Sequence record: AJ697969.1
DNA length: 64,000 nucleotides
Reading direction: 5' to 3' (one strand)
DNA from: Pseudomonas phage EL
The translations under genes and the position numbers were made by a program. This document shows positions 7,125 through 15,818 of this stretch, in pieces. Every line of letters begins with the position of its first letter. The stretch's first letter is position 1. The notes under the pieces are model-generated. The model was not told the DNA's origin. It did not search any database and saw nothing but the letters and a program-made list of their open reading frames with translations.

Positions 7125-8561
7125 ATGCACGAAACCAATGAACTGAACAAACTGTACGAAGCGATGTGTTTGTCGTGGGGCGCGCAGGTTAAAGAACAGG
7201 GACGACTCGTCTTTATGATCGATGGGGAAGAATTCCCACTCCGTATTGATGGGATGACCCTCCACCTTCCGCTGAGCGAAGTCCTGGATGGGAACTGCGT
7301 GGATAAGGTCTTCTTCCACCCGGCCTGTGAAAACATCGTGTCGAAAGAAACGGAAGTGTTCAAGATCATCCGGCGGATGACCTGTATGAAACTGCTGGAT
7401 ACCTTCCGTCGTATTCCGATGGTGTTATTCACCGTTGCAGGCCATAAGCCCAAGAGTACCTGGAACCAACGTATCCACGACATGCTGGAGCCCCTTAAAG
7501 GTGCCAAGCGTGCGGTACGGGATGAACTCAACGCATTGTTCAGCCGTATGCATGTGGAAGTGGAAGAGAATGGGTTGGATAACCGTTTCATTCACTTCAA
7601 GGTATCTAAGGGCGGTGGTACCAGTAAGACCACGGGTCAACGGATCTATTACAAGACCCGTCCGGAGTTTCCGTTCTATACGGAAATCGTTCGTCGTCTG
7701 GCACGTTCGGATGGTCAATCGGATAACCAGACCATTGAAATCAATAACCACACGGTCTCCCGAGCGGCACTTCGTCTGGCCGCCCATATCTTCCAGAACG
7801 TCCTTCCGGCGGTAAACAGTCCCAGTGACTATGAGTTTGAATCGACTTCCCCGGTGGCGTCTCGTCTAGTGTCCTACATGGGGTGCTATGCGGAAATCGC
7901 AGATCAATTGAATAAGATCCAGAATACCTTCCGATCTGATTTCGATAAAGCCGGGTTGTACCCGATTGATCTGAGCTGGACGGAACGCCTGGAAGAACTA
8001 CCGGATATTTATCGCCAAGTCCCAGTACTGGATTACAACAGCCACAACACCCATGATGAAGTCCAGCATCAAGCAGTGAGTCGGAATGACATGGGTGGTC
8101 TGCTGTCGGTTACCAGTACCAACCAACAGGGTGTTTCTCAACATCAATCCCAACCGCAGCACGTTGCAGGAATGAGCGGGGACTATGACGTATCACCTCC
8201 GCAGATGCAAGCGGGAGACCGGTATGTCCGTACTGAGATCGATTACGTCGGTCAACGCGTTCTCCACCATGCGGTTAACCAAACCACCAATAACCCGGTC
8301 GTCTACATCTGTAGCCGTAAAGGGAACTTCCTGCAACGCTCTGAAACCAACATGATGCTCCAGCAAATGGGTATGTTGGGTGGGATGGGTGGTATGATGG
8401 GTGGAACGATGCTGGCCAACGGGATGGTTCAACTGCCGAACGGTATGATCGTGAATCCGCAGATGATGGGGGGTGTTTCGATGCCCACACCTACCGCCGC
8501 ACCGAGTGTATACCCGGACGCCGGTATGGGGTTTGACCTGGGAGCCCCAGGTATCTTCTAA
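7125..8561 (+). CDS. hypothetical protein with Gly/Met-rich low-complexity C-terminal tail
   Basis: 478-aa ORF; the C-terminus reads MMLQQMGMLGGMGGMMGGTMLANGMVQLPNGMIVNPQMMGGVSMP. Confidence 0.7.
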   Translation: MHETNELNKLYEAMCLSWGAQVKEQGRLVFMIDGEEFPLRIDGMTLHLPLSEVLDGNCVDKVFFHPACENIVSKETEVFKIIRRMTCMKLLDTFRRIPMVLFTVAGHKPKSTWNQRIHDMLEPLKGAKRAVRDELNALFSRMHVEVEENGLDNRFIHFKVSKGGGTSKTTGQRIYYKTRPEFPFYTEIVRRLARSDGQSDNQTIEINNHTVSRAALRLAAHIFQNVLPAVNSPSDYEFESTSPVASRLVSYMGCYAEIADQLNKIQNTFRSDFDKAGLYPIDLSWTERLEELPDIYRQVPVLDYNSHNTHDEVQHQAVSRNDMGGLLSVTSTNQQGVSQHQSQPQHVAGMSGDYDVSPPQMQAGDRYVRTEIDYVGQRVLHHAVNQTTNNPVVYICSRKGNFLQRSETNMMLQQMGMLGGMGGMMGGTMLANGMVQLPNGMIVNPQMMGGVSMPTPTAAPSVYPDAGMGFDLGAPGIF

Positions 8562-8578
8562 GCAACAATAACCTTACC

Positions 8579-8608
8579 AGTACCTAGCGGGATATCCCGC
8601 TAGGTACT
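8579..8608 (+). terminator. rho-independent terminator (perfect 30-nt palindrome AGTACCTAGCGGGATATCCCGCTAGGTACT plus T-run)
   Basis: perfect palindrome 18 nt after the stop, followed by GTGTTTTCTCTATTTTATT. Confidence 0.75.
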
Positions 8609-8636
8609 GTGTTTTCTCTATTTTATTCCAGTATTT

Positions 8637-8966
8637 TTACGCTTGGGTCGTATTACTACGTGCAACGGCCTGGGTCAAATGGGCCTCGTCAATTATCTTG
8701 TAACTTTGCATGCCCGCACAATCCATAAAGGGATCTTCAATCCCATTCAGATAGGCGGTGACCCACAGCATATGGTTTTCAACCCCTTGAACCCTCAGGA
8801 ACCGATAGAAGTCATACCGATAGGCATACAGTTGTGCGTGAGAGACGATTGGAATCTCCTGGGTTTGACGGAGGAGTATTTCCCGTTCGGACCGCACCAA
8901 GACTTTGAACCGTTCAGTAAAGAAGAAATCACGTCCTTCACTGAAGTTAACAATAGACAGTGGCAT
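8637..8966 (-). CDS. hypothetical small protein, divergent from tnpB
   Basis: 109-aa minus-strand ORF with an ATG start and an AAGGA RBS; protein-like composition; no HUH/Y1 (TnpA) motif found; a competing plus-strand ORF 8643-8993 has a TTG start only. Confidence 0.35.
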   Translation of the reverse strand: MPLSIVNFSEGRDFFFTERFKVLVRSEREILLRQTQEIPIVSHAQLYAYRYDFYRFLRVQGVENHMLWVTAYLNGIEDPFMDCAGMQSYKIIDEAHLTQAVARSNTTQA

Positions 8967-8995
8967 GGAGAAGATCCTTATCGATGCAGCTAACC

Positions 8996-9017
8996 ATTTT
9001 TGAACCTATATTATTTC
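8996..9017 (+). promoter_or_regulatory. promoter-like motif, copy 3 (ATTTTTGAACCTATATTATTTC), 28 nt upstream of tnpB
   Basis: matches the ATTTTAAACCTACATTATCTTC core of copies 1 and 2 at 18 of 22 positions. Confidence 0.4.
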
Positions 9018-9044
9018 TGTGACCCGACATAAGGAATTATCCCA

Positions 9045-10187
9045 ATGGAATACTTAACGACCCAACGAAGTCGATTGTATCCCAACCTGGATACTCGTCT
9101 GGTATTAAACAAAACCATAGGGTGTTCACGTTTCATATGGAACGCTCTACTGGGTAATCATAAGGAAGAATACGGTCTTTGGGTAGAGGATCCAGAAACT
9201 CATCCTAAACCGAGTTGTTCTTTAAGTTCCTTTAATCAAAAGCTGAACGAACTTAAAGTTGAATACCCCTGGTTAAATGAGGTCAGTTCTGTTGCTTTAC
9301 AACAAACAGTTCTTCATTTAACCAAGGCTTTTAGTGAGTTCTTCCAGGGTATTCATGGTTATCCAAAATTTAAATCTAAACGAGATCCCGGTGGATTTAA
9401 CCTCAGTAGTGCAGCGGGAACTTTAGCCAAGGACGGCAAGATTCGAATCCCCAAGATAAAGGGATACACCACCTGTCGACCTAAGCTCCCGTTGGATCAG
9501 GAAATTAGGAACTACAGCATTGTCAAAGACCGGGTTGGGAATTACTTTGTCAATTGCTTAGTAACTAAACCTTGTCTACCGAATACGGCTAAAGGTCAAG
9601 GACTGGTGGGGGTTGATCTGGGGATTAAATCCTTAGCGGTGGCGAAGCGGTCTACAGGTGAAATCTTTACCTTGGAGAATCCTCGAACCTACATGAAGTA
9701 CCACCGTAGACGTGTACGACTTCAACGGCGATTAGCCAAGAAACAGAAAGGGAGTCAAAACCGTAATAAAGCTAGAATTAAACTGGCCAAACTAGAACGT
9801 AAGGTCGGCAATATTCGCAAGAACACCCTGGATACCTTCACCTCTAAACTGATTAGCGAAAACCAAGTAATCAGTATTGAGGATTTGAATGTTAAAGGGA
9901 TGCTGAAAAACAGCCGGTTGGCTAAGCATATCCAAGACTGTGGATTTAGCACCCTCCGGAGGATGTTGGAACACAAGGCTAAACGGTATGAATCACCGGT
10001 TATTATTAGCCTGGTCCATCGATTTTACCCCAGCACCCAGTGTTGTTCAGCGTGTGGTATTAAACGTGAGATCAAACTGACCCTTAATGACCGGGAATGG
10101 ACCTGCGCTGAATGCGGGACCTCTCACGACAGAGACATCAATGCTGCAACGAATATCCTGTATGAAGGACTTCGGTTAGTGGTCTGA
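9045..10187 (+). CDS. tnpB: TnpB (IS200/IS605-family OrfB, RuvC-like nuclease with zinc ribbon)
   Basis: N-terminus RLYPNLDTRLVLNKTIGCSRFIWNALL (OrfB N-domain); RuvC-I VGVDLGIKSLA; RuvC-II ISIEDLNVKGM; zinc ribbon CCSACGIKREIKLTLNDREWTCAECG; RuvC-III HDRDINAATNI. Confidence 0.85.
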   Translation: MEYLTTQRSRLYPNLDTRLVLNKTIGCSRFIWNALLGNHKEEYGLWVEDPETHPKPSCSLSSFNQKLNELKVEYPWLNEVSSVALQQTVLHLTKAFSEFFQGIHGYPKFKSKRDPGGFNLSSAAGTLAKDGKIRIPKIKGYTTCRPKLPLDQEIRNYSIVKDRVGNYFVNCLVTKPCLPNTAKGQGLVGVDLGIKSLAVAKRSTGEIFTLENPRTYMKYHRRRVRLQRRLAKKQKGSQNRNKARIKLAKLERKVGNIRKNTLDTFTSKLISENQVISIEDLNVKGMLKNSRLAKHIQDCGFSTLRRMLEHKAKRYESPVIISLVHRFYPSTQCCSACGIKREIKLTLNDREWTCAECGTSHDRDINAATNILYEGLRLVV

Positions 10188-10361
10188 TAGAAAATTTACT
10201 CTTTGGAGTAACTACCGAAGCCTACTCGGGATGTTAAGCCTGTGGAGCATCAGTGCGGTTAAGCTGAGCAATGAAGCAGGAAGTTTGAGGTTAAAACATT
10301 GGGATAAAGACAGTCTTAACTCATTATTGAAAAGACTGCTGTTGACTGTAATGGAGCCGTT
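9045..10361 (+). mobile_element. solo tnpB element (IS1341-like; TnpA absent) with 174-nt structured 3' non-coding region (candidate omega-RNA / right end)
   Basis: intact tnpB with no Y1 transposase in the window; the 3' region 10188-10361 contains an imperfect hairpin (GACAGTCTT...AAGACTGCT) and has no long ORF; element boundaries are not determinable from a single copy. Confidence 0.45.
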
Positions 10362-12668
10362 ATGAGTAAAGAAAAATTGAATCAGGACCTGAAAGGTGTA
10401 AGTAGTGAGATCCGTGCCGCACTGGGTGCAGAGGATACGGATCTTACCCCTGACAGTGCAGCGGGTCAATTCCTCCAGGAAGTCCGTTACAAGTATCCCT
10501 GCGGGGAGAATCAAATCCATCCTGCTTTAGTGGGTGTCAGCAGTAACCTGATTCTCTTCCCGCACGAAGCCTCCGCGGGTCGTCTCTATATGGCGGGTAA
10601 CATGATCCCTAAATCCGTGCCGACCGAAGGAGCGGGTGAACGGATGATGGTAACCGGGTACGAATTTGAGGAACATTACGGTGGAACGGCTCGTAAGGTC
10701 GAAGCCCCTGCGAATATGCTGGTGGAAGAGATCTTCTTCGTTCAGAGTCTGGTTCCGGGTAAGGATACGGATGACTGGAATTCGATTTACGTGGTCTTTA
10801 AGAACGACGAACAGAACGCCTACGACCTTCTGGAGCTACCTCGGTATAACACCCATAACCACTACGTTGGGTTCGAATATAAATACGATAAAGAGAAACT
10901 CCGTAAGCTCCGTAAAGGTGCCACTTTCGCTAAAGGGACCGTCTTCGCTAAGAGTCCCCGTATCAGTGAGAATGGGGAATGGTGTTTTGCAATGCCGACC
11001 TTGGTAGCCGCCTATTCGGACCAAAGGACTGAGGAGGATGGCGTGCTTATCACCCGTTCCTATGCGGAACGTTCGGCTTGTATGTTCAAGCACGAGTTCA
11101 GCTATGAATGGAATGAGGATGAATGGATTCCTCTGATGCTGTACGGAACGGACGAGAACCCCCAACCGCTCCCTGAGTCGGGTGATAACATCCGTGAGGA
11201 TGGGATCGTCATGGGCTTCCGTCGCCGCATCAAAGAGAACGCGCTGGTTTCCCTGACCAAGAAGTCCCTACGAGAACCGGATCTGGTGTACGACAAGTTG
11301 TTCTATGCGCCGGTGGATGCGGTTGTGATGTCAGTCACTGTTCGGTCGGATCGGATGAAGAACCGGTCCAATAACCGGGGAACGGATTACATCGAACAAC
11401 ACCACAATGCCATGCTGGACCGCTATGAGAAACGCCAGAATGAAATGTGGAACAATGTGATCCGGTGGTACGAAGGGAAGATCGCTGCCAACCGCGGGGA
11501 AGACATTCCCATTACCTTTGACCTCGATACCTTCATTCGGAACGCGTATGGTAACTATACCCGCAATGGGTTGGGTCGTATTAACCCGTTGGCCCGAGTG
11601 GAACGGTGGGATAAACTGAAAGATTGGAACGTGACCATCGAACTGAAGGAACGGGTCAAAGGTCGTGTTAAATTCAAGTACGCGGGTTTGAACGGTGACA
11701 AAGGGGTGTGTGTACGGGTCATTGAAGACGACGAAGCTCCCACCTATCCGGATGGGACTCGGGCGGAGTTCATTAAAGATAACGTACCGGCGTTCCGTCG
11801 CCAGATCTTTTCGTTGCTCATGGAACTGAGTATCAACTATGTGAACATGAACGTTCAACGGGAAGTCAGACACCTACGGCTACAAGGGGATTATGAAGGC
11901 GCTTTCCAGGCGTTGATGACGTTCTATGAAACCGGTTTCCCTGAATTCAGTGAATTGGTTGCTCATGCGTTGGTTACGGAGGAGGAGAAACGTGAGCACG
12001 TCGACGATGTCTGTCGCCGGAAGATTTCCGTGCATGTGGTCAGTAACACGAAGTTGTATGGCGTGAACCTGATCAACGCCCTGCGTCGTCAATACCCGTA
12101 TAAGCCGCAGAAAGCCATTATCGTGAACGCACTGGGAGAACGGGTGGAAACCGAGAACCCTATCCTTATCAGCTGTCAGGACATTATGCTCCTGGATAAG
12201 TTTGGTACGGACATGAGTGCGCAGAGTATGCCGAAGGCTAACCTCTTTGGTATGCCAGCGAAGATGAACGAAGGCAGTAAATACGCCACCCCCATGAAAG
12301 ACAGTAATAACAAGAATACCGGTGAAACCGAAGGCCGGTTGCAAGTCAGTCACGCGGGCGGGCAGGAAATGATCAAGCAACTGGCTCTGGCGTATTCCCC
12401 CGAGAACCAGAAAAAAGCCTCCCAACGGGTTATTCGTGCGGATGATCCGTTTGAGATTCCTCGGTTGATTAAACCGGAGGAGTATTTGGGGAATCGGGCG
12501 TTGAAAATGGCGGTGGGAATGTTGTCGGATTCGGGTTATCGGCTGCGAGCTGAACTACCCAGTGATCGTCGGGAATATCCAACCTTTAACATGGATGAAA
12601 TCCCAGGGTTAGATGACGAGACCTTGAAGCAGCTTCAGTCATCCGAGAAACCCACTCAAGAACCTTAA
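10362..12668 (+). CDS. multisubunit RNA polymerase beta-subunit homolog, N-terminal/middle fragment
   Basis: the segment RLYMAGNMIPKSVPTEGAGERMMVTG aligns to RpoB fork-loop-2 / beta-D-loop ([14 protein letters not shown]...[12 protein letters not shown]); 768 aa; followed immediately by the second beta fragment. Confidence 0.55.
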   Translation: MSKEKLNQDLKGVSSEIRAALGAEDTDLTPDSAAGQFLQEVRYKYPCGENQIHPALVGVSSNLILFPHEASAGRLYMAGNMIPKSVPTEGAGERMMVTGYEFEEHYGGTARKVEAPANMLVEEIFFVQSLVPGKDTDDWNSIYVVFKNDEQNAYDLLELPRYNTHNHYVGFEYKYDKEKLRKLRKGATFAKGTVFAKSPRISENGEWCFAMPTLVAAYSDQRTEEDGVLITRSYAERSACMFKHEFSYEWNEDEWIPLMLYGTDENPQPLPESGDNIREDGIVMGFRRRIKENALVSLTKKSLREPDLVYDKLFYAPVDAVVMSVTVRSDRMKNRSNNRGTDYIEQHHNAMLDRYEKRQNEMWNNVIRWYEGKIAANRGEDIPITFDLDTFIRNAYGNYTRNGLGRINPLARVERWDKLKDWNVTIELKERVKGRVKFKYAGLNGDKGVCVRVIEDDEAPTYPDGTRAEFIKDNVPAFRRQIFSLLMELSINYVNMNVQREVRHLRLQGDYEGAFQALMTFYETGFPEFSELVAHALVTEEEKREHVDDVCRRKISVHVVSNTKLYGVNLINALRRQYPYKPQKAIIVNALGERVETENPILISCQDIMLLDKFGTDMSAQSMPKANLFGMPAKMNEGSKYATPMKDSNNKNTGETEGRLQVSHAGGQEMIKQLALAYSPENQKKASQRVIRADDPFEIPRLIKPEEYLGNRALKMAVGMLSDSGYRLRAELPSDRREYPTFNMDEIPGLDDETLKQLQSSEKPTQEP

Positions 12669-12707: not shown

Positions 12708-15700
12708 ATGGTAATGAAGATCAAACTCCGTGAATGGGCTAATTTACCAGAAGAAACTGTTCTCCGTTGGTTAAACACCCGCCGGTGGGTGGAGGTCACG
12801 GATGACCTGGACCAAGTCGCTCTAACGGATACCTACGCTCTGATCATTACCTGGCATGGAATGATCATCCACCGGCATTATAACGATGTCCCCTATTCCA
12901 TTAAGGAGATGGTACCCAGTAACAAGGTGGAAGGGGGTGAAGACACCGTCTATAACGATGGAACCAACGCGACGCCTATTAACCAGTTCTTAAAGGTCAT
13001 TCTTCCTACGATTATTGACCCGGTGGAAGTGGACGGGATTAAACGGCTTATTCATATCTGGCAGAATAAGCTGAATAACCTGCTGGTGGTGATGAGTGAA
13101 CGTTACGTTATTTCAGCCACCGCTGAATCCGTAGCGGAGTTCATGGAAGATGAAGGGATCTCTGGAATACGGGACCGTGTCCTGAGCAAGGAGATTTCAA
13201 TTGATGAGGGTGAGCGGGAGTTTGCGGATTATGTCCGGACCGCTCATTCCATTGCCAACAACACCCTCACCCTGCTGTCGCGTACGGGCGGGGTGGCCAT
13301 TAACCAGGCGTATCAGAAGACGATCATCCGGGGTAAAGTCTTTGACCTGAACAACTCGATCATGCCGAATGCGATTACGGTTCCGTATGCGCATGGGATT
13401 ACCAACCTGGCTGATATGCTGGGTGAACGGAATGCAGCAGGTAAAGCCGGGGTTTTGTCTTCAAAGATAAAAATCCCTGGTGGATGGAAGACCATGGGTA
13501 ACATCCGGGTGGGTGATGAAGTCGTTACACCCGATGGAGGTACCGCTAAGGTGCTGGCAGTTCACCCACAAGGTGTAACCAAGGTTGTACGGGTGCACTT
13601 CAAAGACGGTCGATATACTGACGTTAGTCCAGATCACCTGTGGAAGGTTAGACGTCATCATTGGTGCAACGATAAAGCCATGGCTAAACTCACTCGGGAG
13701 GAAGTGGAAGAACGTGTATGGCGAGTCATCACCACCAATGAGTTGAAAGACTATATTGGTCTGTCAACTAAGGTATACGTCCAACTGATTGAACCTGAAA
13801 GAAATGCCGATAAACCCTTCAAAATTCACCCGTATGTGCTCGGTGTCTTGTTGGGGGATGGATGCATTAGTCAAAAGGCTGTGGATATCACCAAACCTTA
13901 TCAACAGCTATTCGATAAGGTCCAATCGCTATTGCCAGAACATTTGGAATGTGTTTGGCGACCCAACCGTAAAGGTGATGGAGAACCTAAAACGTTTGGG
14001 ATCCGTTTTAAAGATCGTCGGTCCGAACAGCACATCAACTGGCATATCCGTGATGGCCTGAAGGAACTGGGCTTGTATGGAATGCGGTCGTGGGGAAAAG
14101 TCATTCCCGAAGAATATCTTCACGGATCGGCTAAACAACGTTTGGAGCTCCTCCAAGGACTGTTGGACACAGACGGAACTGTGGACAAACACAAATCGGT
14201 TAGCTTTAGCTCTTCGTCTAAGTTACTCTCCCTCGGAGTGCAATACTTGGTCAGAAGCCTAGGGGGGATGGCACGTCTCCAAGAACGTACTCCCCACTAC
14301 ACCCACAATGGAGAAAAAAGGGAAGGTCGTACGGACTATCGGGTTTATATCCGATACCCTCGACCAGAAGAACTCTTCACCCTAGACCACAAACGGGAAC
14401 GTGCGGTCTCGCACCAGCATACGGAAACCCTGAGACTGCAAGTAACTCATATTGAAGAACGTCCTGATGAGGAGACACAATGCATTACGATCGATCATCC
14501 TGATCATCTGTACATTACAGACGACTTCATTGTCACCCACAACAGCCTAACCAATAACGGCAAGGCCCTGAAATCATCGGAATGGTTCCACCGGAAGGTA
14601 CACATCCTGTCCGCTGTGGTGGCGGATATCGATCATTTCATGGACTGTGGAACGACCACTACAGTGCCGATCCGAATTCCCAATATGCAAGCGGCAATGG
14701 CACTGTTGGGTAAATTCAGGGTAACCGATACAGGAGAATTAGAACTCATTGATCAAACCACGGTGTGGTCAATTAAGCCAGGGGAGTGGGTTAATATTCG
14801 TAGTGTGGCCTTCTGTAATCACTACAATAGTGCTTCACCCTGCCGGGTATGCTACGGGATGATGGCGAGCTCTATCCCGTATAACGTGATGATGAAGAAA
14901 GGGGCTGATGTCGGGATGTGGTGTACCACCTCGATCTGTAACCCCATCGGCCAGGGAATGCTCTCCACCAAGCATTTCATTAGGAATGCAACGACCCGTA
15001 AGTTCGTTCCTGCGACTAAGGATAAGAACGTTATCTATTCCAATGGTGACGATATTTTCCTGACTAAGGAACTCTGTGCACCGGGCACTGAATTGGTGCT
15101 CAAAGCCGATATTGTAAACATCCTCTCGGATATCCGTTCCTTGGATGTTCTGGACAACTTGAGCCTGGATAAACTCCCGTACTTCTCTGAAGTCACATTC
15201 CGCTATGAAGTCGAAGACATCATGATGGGGGGTAAAACCCTCCAGCAGCATGCGGCTTGTACCTCGGTGTCGTCTCGGAATGCCCGGTTCTCGTTGGAGT
15301 TCCTGAACTATCTCCTGAGTAAAGGTTGGGCGAACGAAGGTAAGAAACATATTACCGTTGATTTGAGTGAATGGAATACGCTCAGTCCTATCTTCACACT
15401 GCCGTATGTTCGTGAAGACTTGGACATGCACCGGGCTCGGGTAGAGAACTTCATCACGTTCAATAAACGCAATAACGCCTGGAGACAGCAGATCGTTACA
15501 CCCCGTCTCTTTGGTGAGGTCTTAGCGGAATACTGGGGATTGATCAACCAGGAAACGAAAGGGATTAACATCATCCATCCTGAGGTCTTGCTCTATTCCA
15601 CGTTGTGTCGGGATCCCATGCGCGGGGATTATTCCCTGGCGAATGGTAAAGGACCTAAGTATTTCGTGAACTTCCAGGAGTGTATCAAAGGCAGGGGGGC

Positions 15701-15818
15701 GGGTATGCTCATGATCTACGAGAACCAGCAAAATGTGCTAAGTGATCCTAAGACATTCCGTGTGGTAAACCGTCAGGGGAGTCCGCTGGAGTGCTTCTTT
15801 AGCTTAGCGGTGAGTTGA
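12708..15818 (+). CDS. RNA polymerase beta-subunit homolog, C-terminal fragment, interrupted by an intein (precursor 1036 aa)
   Basis: the N-extein ends GERNAAGKAGVLS (candidate counterpart of RpoB GRHGNKGVIS); the C-extein contains NPIGQG (compare RpoB NIGQ); it sits next to the beta N-fragment; it contains a full intein (see separate feature). The beta assignment of this half is weaker than for 10362-12668. Confidence 0.5.
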   Translation: MVMKIKLREWANLPEETVLRWLNTRRWVEVTDDLDQVALTDTYALIITWHGMIIHRHYNDVPYSIKEMVPSNKVEGGEDTVYNDGTNATPINQFLKVILPTIIDPVEVDGIKRLIHIWQNKLNNLLVVMSERYVISATAESVAEFMEDEGISGIRDRVLSKEISIDEGEREFADYVRTAHSIANNTLTLLSRTGGVAINQAYQKTIIRGKVFDLNNSIMPNAITVPYAHGITNLADMLGERNAAGKAGVLSSKIKIPGGWKTMGNIRVGDEVVTPDGGTAKVLAVHPQGVTKVVRVHFKDGRYTDVSPDHLWKVRRHHWCNDKAMAKLTREEVEERVWRVITTNELKDYIGLSTKVYVQLIEPERNADKPFKIHPYVLGVLLGDGCISQKAVDITKPYQQLFDKVQSLLPEHLECVWRPNRKGDGEPKTFGIRFKDRRSEQHINWHIRDGLKELGLYGMRSWGKVIPEEYLHGSAKQRLELLQGLLDTDGTVDKHKSVSFSSSSKLLSLGVQYLVRSLGGMARLQERTPHYTHNGEKREGRTDYRVYIRYPRPEELFTLDHKRERAVSHQHTETLRLQVTHIEERPDEETQCITIDHPDHLYITDDFIVTHNSLTNNGKALKSSEWFHRKVHILSAVVADIDHFMDCGTTTTVPIRIPNMQAAMALLGKFRVTDTGELELIDQTTVWSIKPGEWVNIRSVAFCNHYNSASPCRVCYGMMASSIPYNVMMKKGADVGMWCTTSICNPIGQGMLSTKHFIRNATTRKFVPATKDKNVIYSNGDDIFLTKELCAPGTELVLKADIVNILSDIRSLDVLDNLSLDKLPYFSEVTFRYEVEDIMMGGKTLQQHAACTSVSSRNARFSLEFLNYLLSKGWANEGKKHITVDLSEWNTLSPIFTLPYVREDLDMHRARVENFITFNKRNNAWRQQIVTPRLFGEVLAEYWGLINQETKGINIIHPEVLLYSTLCRDPMRGDYSLANGKGPKYFVNFQECIKGRGAGMLMIYENQQNVLSDPKTFRVVNRQGSPLECFFSLAVS
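13446..14543 (+). other. intein 1: Hint splicing domain with inserted LAGLIDADG homing endonuclease; class-3-like (WCT) intein
   Basis: block A-like KIKIPGGWKTMGNIRVGDEVVTPDG; block B SPDHLW (Trp at B:12); LAGLIDADG motifs PYVLGVLLGDGCIS (~13828-13870) and RLELLQGLLDTDGTVD (~14143-14190); block F ETQCITIDHPDH (Cys at F:4); block G DDFIVTHN (Thr at G:5), +1 Ser at 14544. The N-terminal boundary is ambiguous between 13446 (A) and 13461 (S) because there is no N-terminal Cys. Confidence 0.75.

What the first reader, a model, noticed from the sequence alone, without database searches (positions are those of the whole stretch)
8996..10361. Intact solo TnpB (RuvC plus zinc ribbon) embedded in a jumbo-phage genome, preceded by the phage's own promoter-like motif and followed by a structured 174-nt non-coding tail
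The gene has all three RuvC motifs and the C4 zinc ribbon, so it is probably catalytically competent. No Y1 TnpA is present, and the only neighbour is a divergent 109-aa ORF without an HUH motif. A variant of the repeated phage motif AAACCTAYATTAYC lies 28 nt upstream, which suggests the phage promoter network drives tnpB. The 3' region 10188-10361 has a hairpin and no convincing ORF (only a 44-codon ORF at 10232-10366), as expected for an omega-RNA scaffold plus guide. A phage-borne RNA-guided TnpB nuclease could act in inter-phage competition or homing rather than transposition.
Basis: partly seen in the sequence, partly recalled or inferred. Interest (0 to 1): 0.7.

Follow-up and report, generated by a model that had tools for sequence, protein, structure and literature searches.

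The report
Phage-borne TnpB nuclease with guide RNA
A Pseudomonas jumbo phage of the EL group carries an intact RNA-guided nuclease gene (tnpB) with its guide-RNA scaffold, wedged between an early phage promoter and an RNA polymerase gene. It has no transposase, and its pattern across related phages suggests it spreads like a homing element, though that is not proven.

Summary
ORF 9045-10187 is a full-length TnpB with its catalytic residues and zinc-finger cysteines in place. A covariance model built only from relatives finds one omega-RNA scaffold in the 64-kb window, at 10182-10282 (E 2e-18).

The window is an Elvirus, a nucleus-forming Pseudomonas jumbo phage. The upstream motif is the published EL promoter consensus and belongs to the phage, not the cassette. 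In phages without the cassette it lies directly upstream of the RNA polymerase gene.

The cassette (9018-10313) has no TnpA and no end hairpins. It is present in 5 and absent in 11 of 16 Elvirus sequences. Copies differ by at most 0.5%, while their flanks differ by 1.6-2.1%. The "empty" alleles are scars that keep about 19 nt of the right end. They sit in the most variable 28-nt stretch of 4.2 kb.

Relatives at 47-61% identity whose context I examined all lie in jumbo or large lytic phage DNA, usually just after a TAYATTA motif.

Best reading: a transposase-less TnpB/omega-RNA cassette, transcribed early, that persists and spreads between co-infecting phages by RNA-guided homing or recombination. 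Nuclease activity, TAM and target are untested. It is a new member of a known kind, of moderate interest.

The parts
8637..8966 (-). Conserved phage gene (109 aa), left neighbour. Not part of the cassette.
   Evidence: phrog_3455, E 7e-21, with no Pfam hit. The identical protein is present in filled and empty Elvirus genomes.
8997..9015 (+). Elvirus promoter motif TTTTTGAACCTATATTATT (core CCTATATTAT, 9005-9014). It is native to the phage.
   Evidence: It matches the published EL consensus WTTTYAAACCTACATTATY (PMC7058600). It is kept in all 11 empty alleles directly upstream of the RNA polymerase gene. Motifs of this class are early promoters read by the virion RNA polymerase (PMC7598289).
9018..9044 (+). 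Left end of the cassette, which is also the tnpB 5' UTR. RBS AAGGAA at 9031-9036.
   Evidence: Homology to empty-site phages stops at 9017. No hairpin: the 9005-9060 stretch that contains this left end folds at -2.0 kcal/mol, no better than shuffles.
9045..10187 (+). tnpB, an RNA-guided nuclease of the IS200/IS605 family (380 aa, intact).
   Evidence: Pfam, PHROG and PDB matches. D191/E279/D364 and four zinc-finger cysteines are present.
10182..10282 (+). Omega-RNA scaffold core: P1 hairpin, CUACC, P2 hairpin, GGGAUGUUAAGCCUGUGGAG, a variable hairpin, then GAAGCAGGAA.
   Evidence: Only covariance-model hit in the window, E 2e-18. 98.1% of cells are paired against 31-48% in slid controls, with 143 double-sided changes. 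All 18 relatives fold on their own into the same shape.
10283..10313 (+). Right-end tail, ending AAAGACAG. It contains an imperfect tandem unit: TGAGGTTAAAACAT / TGGGATAAAGACAG.
   Evidence: The end motif is homologous to AAGACAG/AAGACAC, which closes the Miami-like cassettes exactly at their filled/empty junctions. No terminal hairpin, unlike canonical relatives.
10314..10329 (+). Candidate guide, TCTTAACTCATTATTG. This is an inference and the boundary is uncertain by a few nt. An alternative guide starts at 10283 or 10286.
   Evidence: Its position directly after the inferred right end. It has 3 alleles among 5 filled genomes. No second match in the window at up to 3 mismatches.
10362..12668 (+). 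RNA polymerase beta-like subunit gene, right neighbour. It is the orthologue of phiKZ gp71-73.
   Evidence: phrog_3295, E 7e-244. tblastn matches PHIKZ071-073. No + strand terminator-like site between tnpB and this gene.

Best explanation
This is a transposase-less TnpB/omega-RNA cassette of the IS200/IS605 family (tnpB-only, IS1341-like). It lives in the genome of an Elvirus, a nucleus-forming Pseudomonas jumbo phage.

**Shown**
- The nuclease gene is intact.
- A covariation-supported omega-RNA scaffold follows it.
- The cassette sits between a phage promoter and the first gene of an RNA polymerase gene cluster, with no terminator-like site in between.
- It is present in some and absent in other closely related phages, always at the same site.
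- Its copies are far more alike than their flanks.
- Its closest examined relatives lie in other jumbo or large lytic phages.

**Inferred**
- The virion RNA polymerase transcribes tnpB, the omega-RNA and the polymerase gene as one early transcript.
- TnpB binds the 3' UTR as its guide RNA.
- In mixed infections the complex cuts genomes that carry an intact target at this site. Repair from the cassette-bearing genome then copies the cassette in, as in homing.
- Alleles that survive uncut are those with a disrupted target. This would explain the scarred, hypervariable "empty" alleles.
- Movement to new sites occurs by recombination at repeated promoter motifs, not by TnpA.
For: **Identity.** establish the TnpB. 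establish the omega-RNA.

**Host genome.** Elvirus, family Chimalliviridae.

**Promoter.** Native to the phage, of a motif class read by the virion RNA polymerase.

**Polymorphism.** 5 filled and 11 empty among 16 Elvirus sequences.

**Diversity.** There are 7 variable sites in 1296 nt among 5 copies: 4 synonymous, 2 non-synonymous, and none in the omega-RNA. Pairwise differences between copies are 0.08-0.46%, against 1.6-2.1% in the flanks of three of the same genomes. By flank identity, the three filled genomes compared over the 4.7-kb flanks are not a clade: filled PaBa1 versus empty MIZ-Pa99 is 99.04%, while window versus PaBa1 is 97.9%.

**Linkage.** Flank SNPs are not linked to the cassette beyond about 100 nt.

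**Target region.** It is the most variable 28-nt window in 4.2 kb among the empty alleles: 13 variable columns by MAFFT and about 8 by hand, with the next best 7 and a mean of 1.15. All empty alleles lack 7 nt of the guide region.

**No route for TnpA.** No adjacent tnpA, no end hairpins, and the empty alleles are not seamless.

**Relatives.** A second EL-like contig has a 61%-identical TnpB at a different promoter copy, also beginning 4 nt after CCTATATTA. Miami-like jumbo phages carry copies at several polymorphic sites. Three more relatives lie in contigs that look like large lytic phages. A TAYATTA motif lies 10-75 nt upstream of tnpB in 7 of 11 relatives.
Against: - No sequenced empty allele matches the predicted guide for more than 4-5 nt, so no susceptible target has been seen.
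- The TAM is unknown. The left junctions of the three EL-type elements differ: TTTC, CCAG and TCAG.
- The right-end boundary, and so the guide, is inferred by homology and could be off. Alternative guides start at 10283 or 10286.
- The phage clade lacks the terminal hairpin that canonical relatives have next to the guide. The RNA might therefore be impaired.
- No extended co-conversion tract links flank SNPs to the cassette.
- The low diversity of the copies could come from ordinary recombination plus drift or selection.
- There is no expression, processing or cleavage data.
- In a nucleus-forming phage the protein would have to enter the phage nucleus to reach phage DNA.
Confidence: 0.55

Rival explanations
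1. It is a non-autonomous insertion sequence moved in trans by a host or co-resident Y1 transposase (TnpA). TnpB only helps retain it, as in bacterial IS605 elements.
For: Most tnpB genes in nature are solo and are assumed to be moved in trans. The protein and RNA core are typical of the ISDra2 branch. In one Miami-like site the empty allele has a TTGAT-like TCGAT right before the target.
Against: - Neither end has a hairpin for TnpA to bind. The left end is 27 nt long, and the canonical terminal hairpin is missing from the whole phage clade.
- Empty alleles are scarred rather than seamless.
- Miami-like insertions are flanked by 9- and 17-nt duplications, which TnpA does not make.
- No tnpA was found next to any relative examined.
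- DNA of a nucleus-forming phage is shielded from host proteins. This last point rests on established knowledge, not on a test here.
Confidence: 0.1
2. It is a passenger with no present activity: an old insertion carried vertically, reshuffled by ordinary phage recombination, and lost in most lineages by deletion.
For: - Empty alleles keep a piece of the right end. The site was therefore occupied in, or visited by, the ancestor of all sequenced Elvirus, and loss by deletion did happen.
- No target for the guide was found.
- The terminal hairpin is lost.
Against: - Catalytic and zinc-binding residues are invariant across relatives that are only 44-61% identical to this protein.
- The RNA helices are kept by compensatory changes, including inside the phage clade: CUUGU/GCAAG in L083 and L084.
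- There are 4 synonymous against 2 non-synonymous differences among copies, and none in the RNA.
- The copies are much younger than their flanks.
Confidence: 0.2
3. It has been co-opted by the phage as a weapon or regulator. It could cut competing phages or host DNA, or act through RNA processing on expression of the downstream RNA polymerase gene.
For: - Its placement in an early transcript, just ahead of an essential polymerase gene.
- A nuclease of a related jumbo phage is known to attack a competitor's polymerase gene (Birkholz et al. 2024, as cited in PMC13565253).
Against: - The guide region is not conserved: it has 3 alleles in 5 genomes and derives from the local flank. A fixed weapon target would predict a conserved guide.
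- The cassette is dispensable, since 11 of 16 genomes lack it.
- The nuclease triad is intact, unlike the known co-opted TnpB-like repressors (TldR).
Confidence: 0.15

Closest known systems
ISDra2 TnpB with its omega-RNA (reRNA), IS200/IS605 family, Deinococcus radiodurans
   Same: - Same domain order, with an end-to-end alignment (E 6e-51).
- Same D-E-D catalytic triad and CxxC...CxxC zinc finger.
- The guide RNA scaffold is encoded at the 3' end of the gene and runs into the right end of the element.
   Different: - No TnpA partner and no end hairpins.
- The scaffold lacks the guide-adjacent terminal hairpin seen in canonical relatives of the same RNA type.
- It resides in a strictly lytic jumbo phage, under a phage promoter.
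- The TAM is not known.
IS1341-type (tnpB-only) members of IS200/IS605
   Same: Solo tnpB with an omega-RNA. Bacterial relatives with the same RNA core, such as those in Halomonas and Vreelandella, are also about 1.4-kb tnpB-only units.
   Different: Those bacterial copies have defined ends (...GGTCAA) and multi-copy, clean boundaries. The phage cassettes have variable left ends, scarred empty sites and flanking duplications.
Free-standing homing endonuclease genes of T-even phages (Seg and Mob; intronless homing)
   Same: A nuclease gene sits between conserved genes and is present or absent among close relatives at one locus. Its spread across backgrounds is inferred. It lies next to essential genes.
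   Different: Target recognition here would be by RNA, not by protein. Cleavage of the empty allele and marker exclusion are not shown.
Other phage-borne tnpB genes: cyanophage A-1(L), Thermus Lalka phages, Lak megaphages
   Same: tnpB annotated in lytic or large phages, with function untested (bioRxiv 10.64898/2026.02.14.705889; PMC11437467).
   Different: Here the omega-RNA is defined, filled and empty alleles are compared, and a clade whose examined members all lie in jumbo or large lytic phage DNA is delineated.

Membership tests
TnpB (RNA-guided nuclease of IS200/IS605) | Domain set: HTH_OrfB_IS605, OrfB_IS605 and the Cas12f1-like TNB zinc ribbon | tested here: met
   All three Pfam models score above their gathering thresholds. 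phrog_506 matches at E 3e-114.
TnpB (RNA-guided nuclease of IS200/IS605) | RuvC catalytic triad D-E-D | tested here: met
   D191, E279 and D364 sit in the motifs GVDLGIK, SIEDL and HDRDINAA. They align with the same motifs of ISDra2 TnpB and are invariant in 25 relatives.
TnpB (RNA-guided nuclease of IS200/IS605) | CxxC...CxxC zinc finger | tested here: met
   C334, C337, C354 and C357 are invariant.
TnpB (RNA-guided nuclease of IS200/IS605) | Omega-RNA scaffold encoded at the 3' end of the gene | tested here: met
   An independent covariance model hits 10182-10282 at E 2e-18. Covariation supports the structure.
TnpB (RNA-guided nuclease of IS200/IS605) | Guide taken from the DNA just outside the right end, matching a TAM-flanked target | tested here: inconclusive
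   The right end is placed at 10313 only by homology. No TAM could be derived, and no empty allele matches the candidate guide.
TnpB (RNA-guided nuclease of IS200/IS605) | RNA-guided cleavage of double-stranded DNA | not testable with these tools
   Needs biochemistry or an interference assay.
Autonomous IS200/IS605 element (IS605/IS608 type) | Adjacent Y1 (HUH) transposase TnpA | tested here: not met
   The neighbours are phrog_3455 and an RNA polymerase subunit. A rough HxH-motif scan of ORFs of 90-220 aa in the window found no candidate.
Autonomous IS200/IS605 element (IS605/IS608 type) | Subterminal hairpins at the left and right ends | tested here: not met
   Folding gives -2.0 and -1.7 kcal/mol, no better than shuffles. 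No inverted repeats at the ends.
Autonomous IS200/IS605 element (IS605/IS608 type) | Seamless insertion 3' of a fixed 4-5 nt target, with no duplication | tested here: not met
   Empty alleles keep about 19 nt of the right-end tail. Relatives show 9- and 17-nt flanking duplications.
Free-standing homing nuclease gene of phages | Presence/absence polymorphism at one locus among close relatives | tested here: met
   5 filled and 11 empty.
Free-standing homing nuclease gene of phages | Nuclease cuts the allele lacking the gene; biased inheritance with co-conversion of flanks | tested here: inconclusive
   Copies are younger than their flanks, but there is no linked flank haplotype beyond about 100 nt. 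Cleavage cannot be tested here.
TldR-type co-opted, nuclease-dead TnpB relatives | Loss of RuvC catalytic residues | tested here: not met
   The triad is intact.
Type V CRISPR-Cas (Cas12) | Adjacent CRISPR array | tested here: not met
   No repeat array in 8400-10900.

The most novel reading that the evidence does not exclude
A lineage of TnpB/omega-RNA cassettes has become a resident selfish element of jumbo phages. It no longer depends on any transposase. It is transcribed from the phages' own early (virion-polymerase) promoters and works inside the phage nucleus. It spreads between co-infecting phages as an RNA-guided homing drive. The scarred, hypervariable "empty" alleles would be drive-resistant alleles left by aborted homing or target mutation.
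Probability: 0.3. Interest if true: 0.75.

Novelty: new member of a known kind. Interest (0 to 1): 0.5.

Why it matters
TnpB is the ancestor of Cas12 and is used as a compact genome editor. Its natural role, shown so far in bacteria, is to keep its transposon from being lost.

This lytic, nucleus-forming phage offers a natural case without TnpA, with filled and unfilled genomes isolated in several countries. That makes one question directly testable by mixed infections: can TnpB alone drive its own spread between viruses? A positive result would add an RNA-guided member to the homing nucleases that shape phage genomes. It would also imply that a DNA-targeting nuclease is admitted into the phage nucleus.

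In practice, the cassette sits in phages being considered for therapy and is simply labelled "transposase" in the deposited records.

Tried and rejected
- **Rfam.** Nothing relevant in 8000-11500 at E up to 10, so no omega-RNA family reached threshold.
- **More Elvirus alleles.** The IMG/VR and JGI metagenome collections have no exact match to the local promoter context. Extra alleles came from looking up the exact 109-aa protein instead.
- **Protein-seeded search of viral contigs.** This gave only relatives of about 40% identity.
- **Right end at 10277 or 10282.** I first placed it there because homology with one empty allele seemed to start there. I dropped this after seeing that canonical relatives extend past CAGGAA, and that Miami-like cassettes end at AAGACAG/AAGACAC exactly at their junctions.
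- **TAM.** I could not derive one from the left junctions. TTTC, CCAG and TCAG disagree, although TCGAT or GTGAT appears at three Miami-like sites.
- **TnpA sequence for a genome-wide search.** A motif heuristic on the bacterial loci found none, so whole-genome absence of tnpA in Elvirus was not formally tested.
- **First polymorphism profile.** The seven-genome profile was distorted by misalignment of empty against filled alleles. I redid it on the empty alleles only.
- **A possible imperfect repeat.** 8990-9004 resembles 10316-10331, but the match is too weak to use.
Full report
**1. What is at the coordinates**

ORF 9045-10187 (+, 380 aa) is a TnpB.
- It matches OrfB_IS605 (1.3e-22), Cas12f1-like_TNB (1.5e-20) and HTH_OrfB_IS605 (5e-8), all above Pfam's cut-offs. 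It matches phrog_506 "transposase" at 3e-114.
- It aligns from residue 10 to 376 with the solved ISDra2 TnpB (8bf8, 8exa, 8h1j; E 6e-51).
- The catalytic motifs GVD(191)LGIK, SIE(279)DL and HDRD(364)INAA, and the cysteines C334, C337, C354 and C357, are present. They are invariant in an alignment of 25 relatives that are only 44-61% identical to it.

G+C falls from 0.50-0.53 in the flanks to 0.39-0.47 across about 8850-10350. This is the usual mark of imported DNA.

**2. The genome and the neighbours**

The window is 98.5% identical to Pseudomonas phages phiRU and IR-QUMS-PaBa1. These belong to genus Elvirus, family Chimalliviridae, at about 211 kb.
- The divergent 109-aa ORF (8637-8966) is a conserved phage gene (phrog_3455). 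The identical protein occurs in genomes with and without tnpB.
- The downstream gene (10362-12668) is an RNA polymerase beta-like subunit (phrog_3295, E 7e-244). Its phiKZ counterpart is PHIKZ071-073. From my own knowledge of Yakunina et al. 2015, that protein is a subunit of the non-virion RNA polymerase.
- No TnpA lies next to the cassette. There is no CRISPR array, terminal inverted repeat or target duplication in 8400-10900.

**3. The promoter motif**

The stretch 8997-9015 (TTTTTGAACCTATATTATT) matches the predicted EL promoter WTTTYAAACCTACATTATY in Table 2 of PMC7058600.
- In RNA-polymerase-encoding jumbo phages, motifs of this type are early promoters. They are read by the virion RNA polymerase and are centred near -10 (PMC7598289).
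- The core CCTAYATTA occurs four times in the window, always on the + strand and 35-50 nt before an ATG, against about 0.9 expected.
- In all 11 genomes without tnpB the motif is kept and lies 60-65 nt before the polymerase gene's ATG. It therefore belongs to the phage, and the cassette lies between the promoter and its gene.
- No terminator-like site separates tnpB from the polymerase gene on the + strand. Read-through from this promoter is the simplest expectation, but that is an inference.

**4. The non-coding tail is an omega-RNA**

Sequence conservation among relatives continues past the stop codon: CUACC, a hairpin, GGGAnGUUAAGCCUGUGGAG, a variable hairpin, then GAAGCAGGAA.
- I built a covariance model from 17 relatives, leaving the window out. 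It finds one hit in 64 kb: 10182-10282, 61.2 bits, E 2e-18.
- On 100 matches from phage, bacterial and archaeal DNA, 98.1% of cells pair, against 31-48% when partners are slid. There are 143 double-sided changes, and 0 of 500 shuffles reach the observed score.
- Each of 18 sequences folds by itself into the same closing helix around a hairpin of unrelated sequence. L083 and L084 carry the compensatory pair CUUGU/GCAAG.
- Rfam has no family that matches.

**5. Where the cassette ends**

The left boundary is 9017|9018.

The right boundary needed relatives to settle.
- In bacterial and archaeal copies the element runs 30-88 nt beyond CAGGAA, through a terminal hairpin, to ...GTCAA or ...GTTCAC.
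- The jumbo-phage copies have instead a short A/U-rich tail ending AAGACAG or AAGACAC. In Miami-like phages the filled/empty junction falls right after it. The same tail, GTTGAAATATACAAGACAG, recurs at different sites.
- By homology, the window's right end is ...GGGATAAAGACAG at 10313. The candidate guide is then 10314-10329, TCTTAACTCATTATTG. This is an inference. Starts at 10283 or 10286 remain possible.
- Neither the left end nor the tail folds (-2.0 and -1.7 kcal/mol, no better than shuffles). A canonical relative has a stable terminal hairpin.

**6. Filled and "empty" alleles**

Of 16 Elvirus sequences, 5 carry the cassette: the window, phiRU, PaBa1, an ENA metagenome scaffold and a Logan contig. 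The other 11 do not.

The empty alleles are not clean. Between the promoter and GTCTTTATTG they read TT(C/T)(A/G)GGAA-TGAG(G)TT(A/G)A(A/G)AC...
- This is AGGAA, the end of the scaffold core, followed by one copy of a roughly 14-nt unit. That unit is tandemly doubled in the filled right-end tail.
- AGGAA is part of a universally conserved helix of the RNA, so I read these roughly 19 nt as a remnant of the element. On that reading the site was occupied in, or visited by, the ancestor of all sequenced Elvirus.
- The same alleles lack 7 nt (AACTCAT) of the guide region. None of them matches the candidate guide beyond 4-5 nt.
- This patch is the most variable 28-nt window in 4.2 kb among six empty genomes: 13 variable columns by MAFFT and about 8 by hand. 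The next best window has 7; the mean is 1.15 and the sd 1.44. The 189 nt to its left have no variable site in 14 genomes.

**7. Age of the copies**

The five copies differ at 7 of 1296 positions: 4 synonymous, 2 non-synonymous, 1 in the left end and none in the RNA. Pairwise differences are 0.08-0.46%.
- The flanks of three of the same genomes differ by 1.6-2.1%.
- By flank identity, the three filled genomes compared over the 4.7-kb flanks do not group together. PaBa1 (filled) is 99.04% identical to MIZ-Pa99 (empty), but only 97.9% to the window.
- Flank SNPs show no association with the cassette beyond about 100 nt.

The cassette has therefore moved between diverged genomes at this one site more recently than those genomes diverged. 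Homing predicts this pattern. Ordinary recombination in a freely mixing phage population could also produce it.

**8. A group of relatives in large phages**

After the 99% cluster, the nearest proteins are 61% and 59% identical, followed by a group at 47-54%.
- The 61% protein lies in a more distant EL-like contig with the same local gene order. It sits about 5 kb away from the equivalent site, at another copy of the promoter motif. It also begins TGTG exactly 4 nt after CCTATATTA.
- Others lie in the roughly 250-kb phages Miami, phiKp_32, BUCTxx100 and VB_ZK_P1. They occupy several sites that are empty in sister phages.
- Three further members lie in contigs that look like large lytic phages, carrying genes for NAD ligase, RNase H, thymidylate synthase, thymidine kinase and Cpn60.
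- All copies are solo and co-oriented with their neighbours. In 7 of 11 a TAYATTA motif lies 10-75 nt upstream.

**9. Mechanism**

*Shown:* an intact nuclease gene with its RNA scaffold, sitting in an early-promoter context; no route for TnpA; recent spread at one site; and long-term conservation of the protein and RNA among relatives found in phage DNA.

*Inferred:* early co-transcription, self-processing of the RNA, entry into the phage nucleus, cleavage of susceptible alleles in mixed infection, and repair from the filled genome. The scarred and variable empty alleles would then be resistant alleles.

I put this reading at about 0.55. The rivals are an inert passenger (0.2), a co-opted weapon or regulator (0.15) and mobilisation in trans by TnpA (0.1).

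**10. Comparison and novelty**

It is a member of the TnpB family: every sequence-level defining feature that could be tested was met. It is not an autonomous IS605 element, because tnpA, the end hairpins and seamless insertion were each tested and not met. It resembles free-standing homing nuclease genes of T-even phages in its population pattern, but the defining cleavage is untested.

tnpB genes in phages have been reported before. This one is annotated "transposase" in GenBank. I therefore class it as a new member of a known kind. The interest lies in the group of relatives found in large phages, the link to early promoters, and the testable homing hypothesis.

**11. Unexplained**

- The 9- and 17-nt duplications flanking two Miami-like insertions.
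- The recurrence of scars that begin CAGG at two independent sites.
- The lack of a common left-junction motif.
- The exact 4-nt spacing from the promoter core in two EL-type elements.

Noticed in passing
window 12708-15818: The next RNA polymerase subunit gene (1036 aa) contains a LAGLIDADG_3/Hom_end domain at aa 466-539. This is probably an intein with a homing endonuclease. Elvirus contigs vary: most encode 1029-1036 aa, and one (L250) encodes 670 aa.
   Followed up: partly
window 10362-12668, compared with phiKZ AF399011 63245-66574: The phiKZ orthologue of the gene just downstream of tnpB spans PHIKZ071-073, so it is itself interrupted by an inserted ORF. The RNA polymerase gene cluster seems to be a repeated landing place for selfish nuclease genes in this phage family.
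   Followed up: no
L087 vs L231; L088 vs L090 and L092: In Miami-like jumbo phages the TnpB cassettes are flanked by direct duplications of 9 nt (TAAGTAGTT) and 17 nt (ACATTATCT[GG/TT]TCGGAG). IS200/IS605 transposition does not produce these. In L087 the 9 nt follow TCGAT in the empty allele.
   Followed up: partly
L086 vs L089 and L091: The empty allele at the phage Miami site holds 21 nt (CATCAGGGTGTATAAACAAAT) in place of the cassette. This stretch contains CAGG, as does the Elvirus scar.
   Followed up: partly
window 10231-10365: This 44-codon ORF is annotated as a CDS in OP599913. It lies on the omega-RNA and 5' UTR, and about two thirds of it is absent from empty-site phages. It is most likely not a gene.
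   Followed up: partly
window 8578-8609: A perfect 16+16-nt palindrome followed by a T-run sits between convergent genes. It looks like a strong terminator.
   Followed up: no
GenBank records PV472050, OP599913, PV400809, PQ516283: Annotation problems. MIZ-Pa99 is filed under Straboviridae and has the 109-aa gene on the wrong strand. An RNA polymerase gene is labelled "terminase large subunit" in PaBa1 and GXNNE2. vB_PQ1 (184 kb, 488 features, fragmented ORFs) looks like an error-rich assembly.
   Followed up: no
L111-L190 (genome contigs): The omega-RNA core motif GGGANGTTAAGCYTGYGGAG is multi-copy in Asgard "Borrarchaeum" MAGs, Selenomonadaceae, and Halomonas/Vreelandella. The Halomonas/Vreelandella copies I compared are tnpB-only units of about 1.4 kb.
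   Followed up: partly
L254 8001-10922: A related TnpB sits directly upstream of a Cpn60 (GroEL-like) gene in a phage-like contig. A phage-encoded chaperonin is a hallmark of EL-type phages.
   Followed up: no
window 10314-10329, compared with 8990-9015: The filled-allele flank TTAACTCATTATTGAA weakly resembles the promoter region (CTAACCATTTTTGAA / CCTATATTATT). It could be a degenerate second promoter copy for the polymerase gene, or it could be chance.
   Followed up: no
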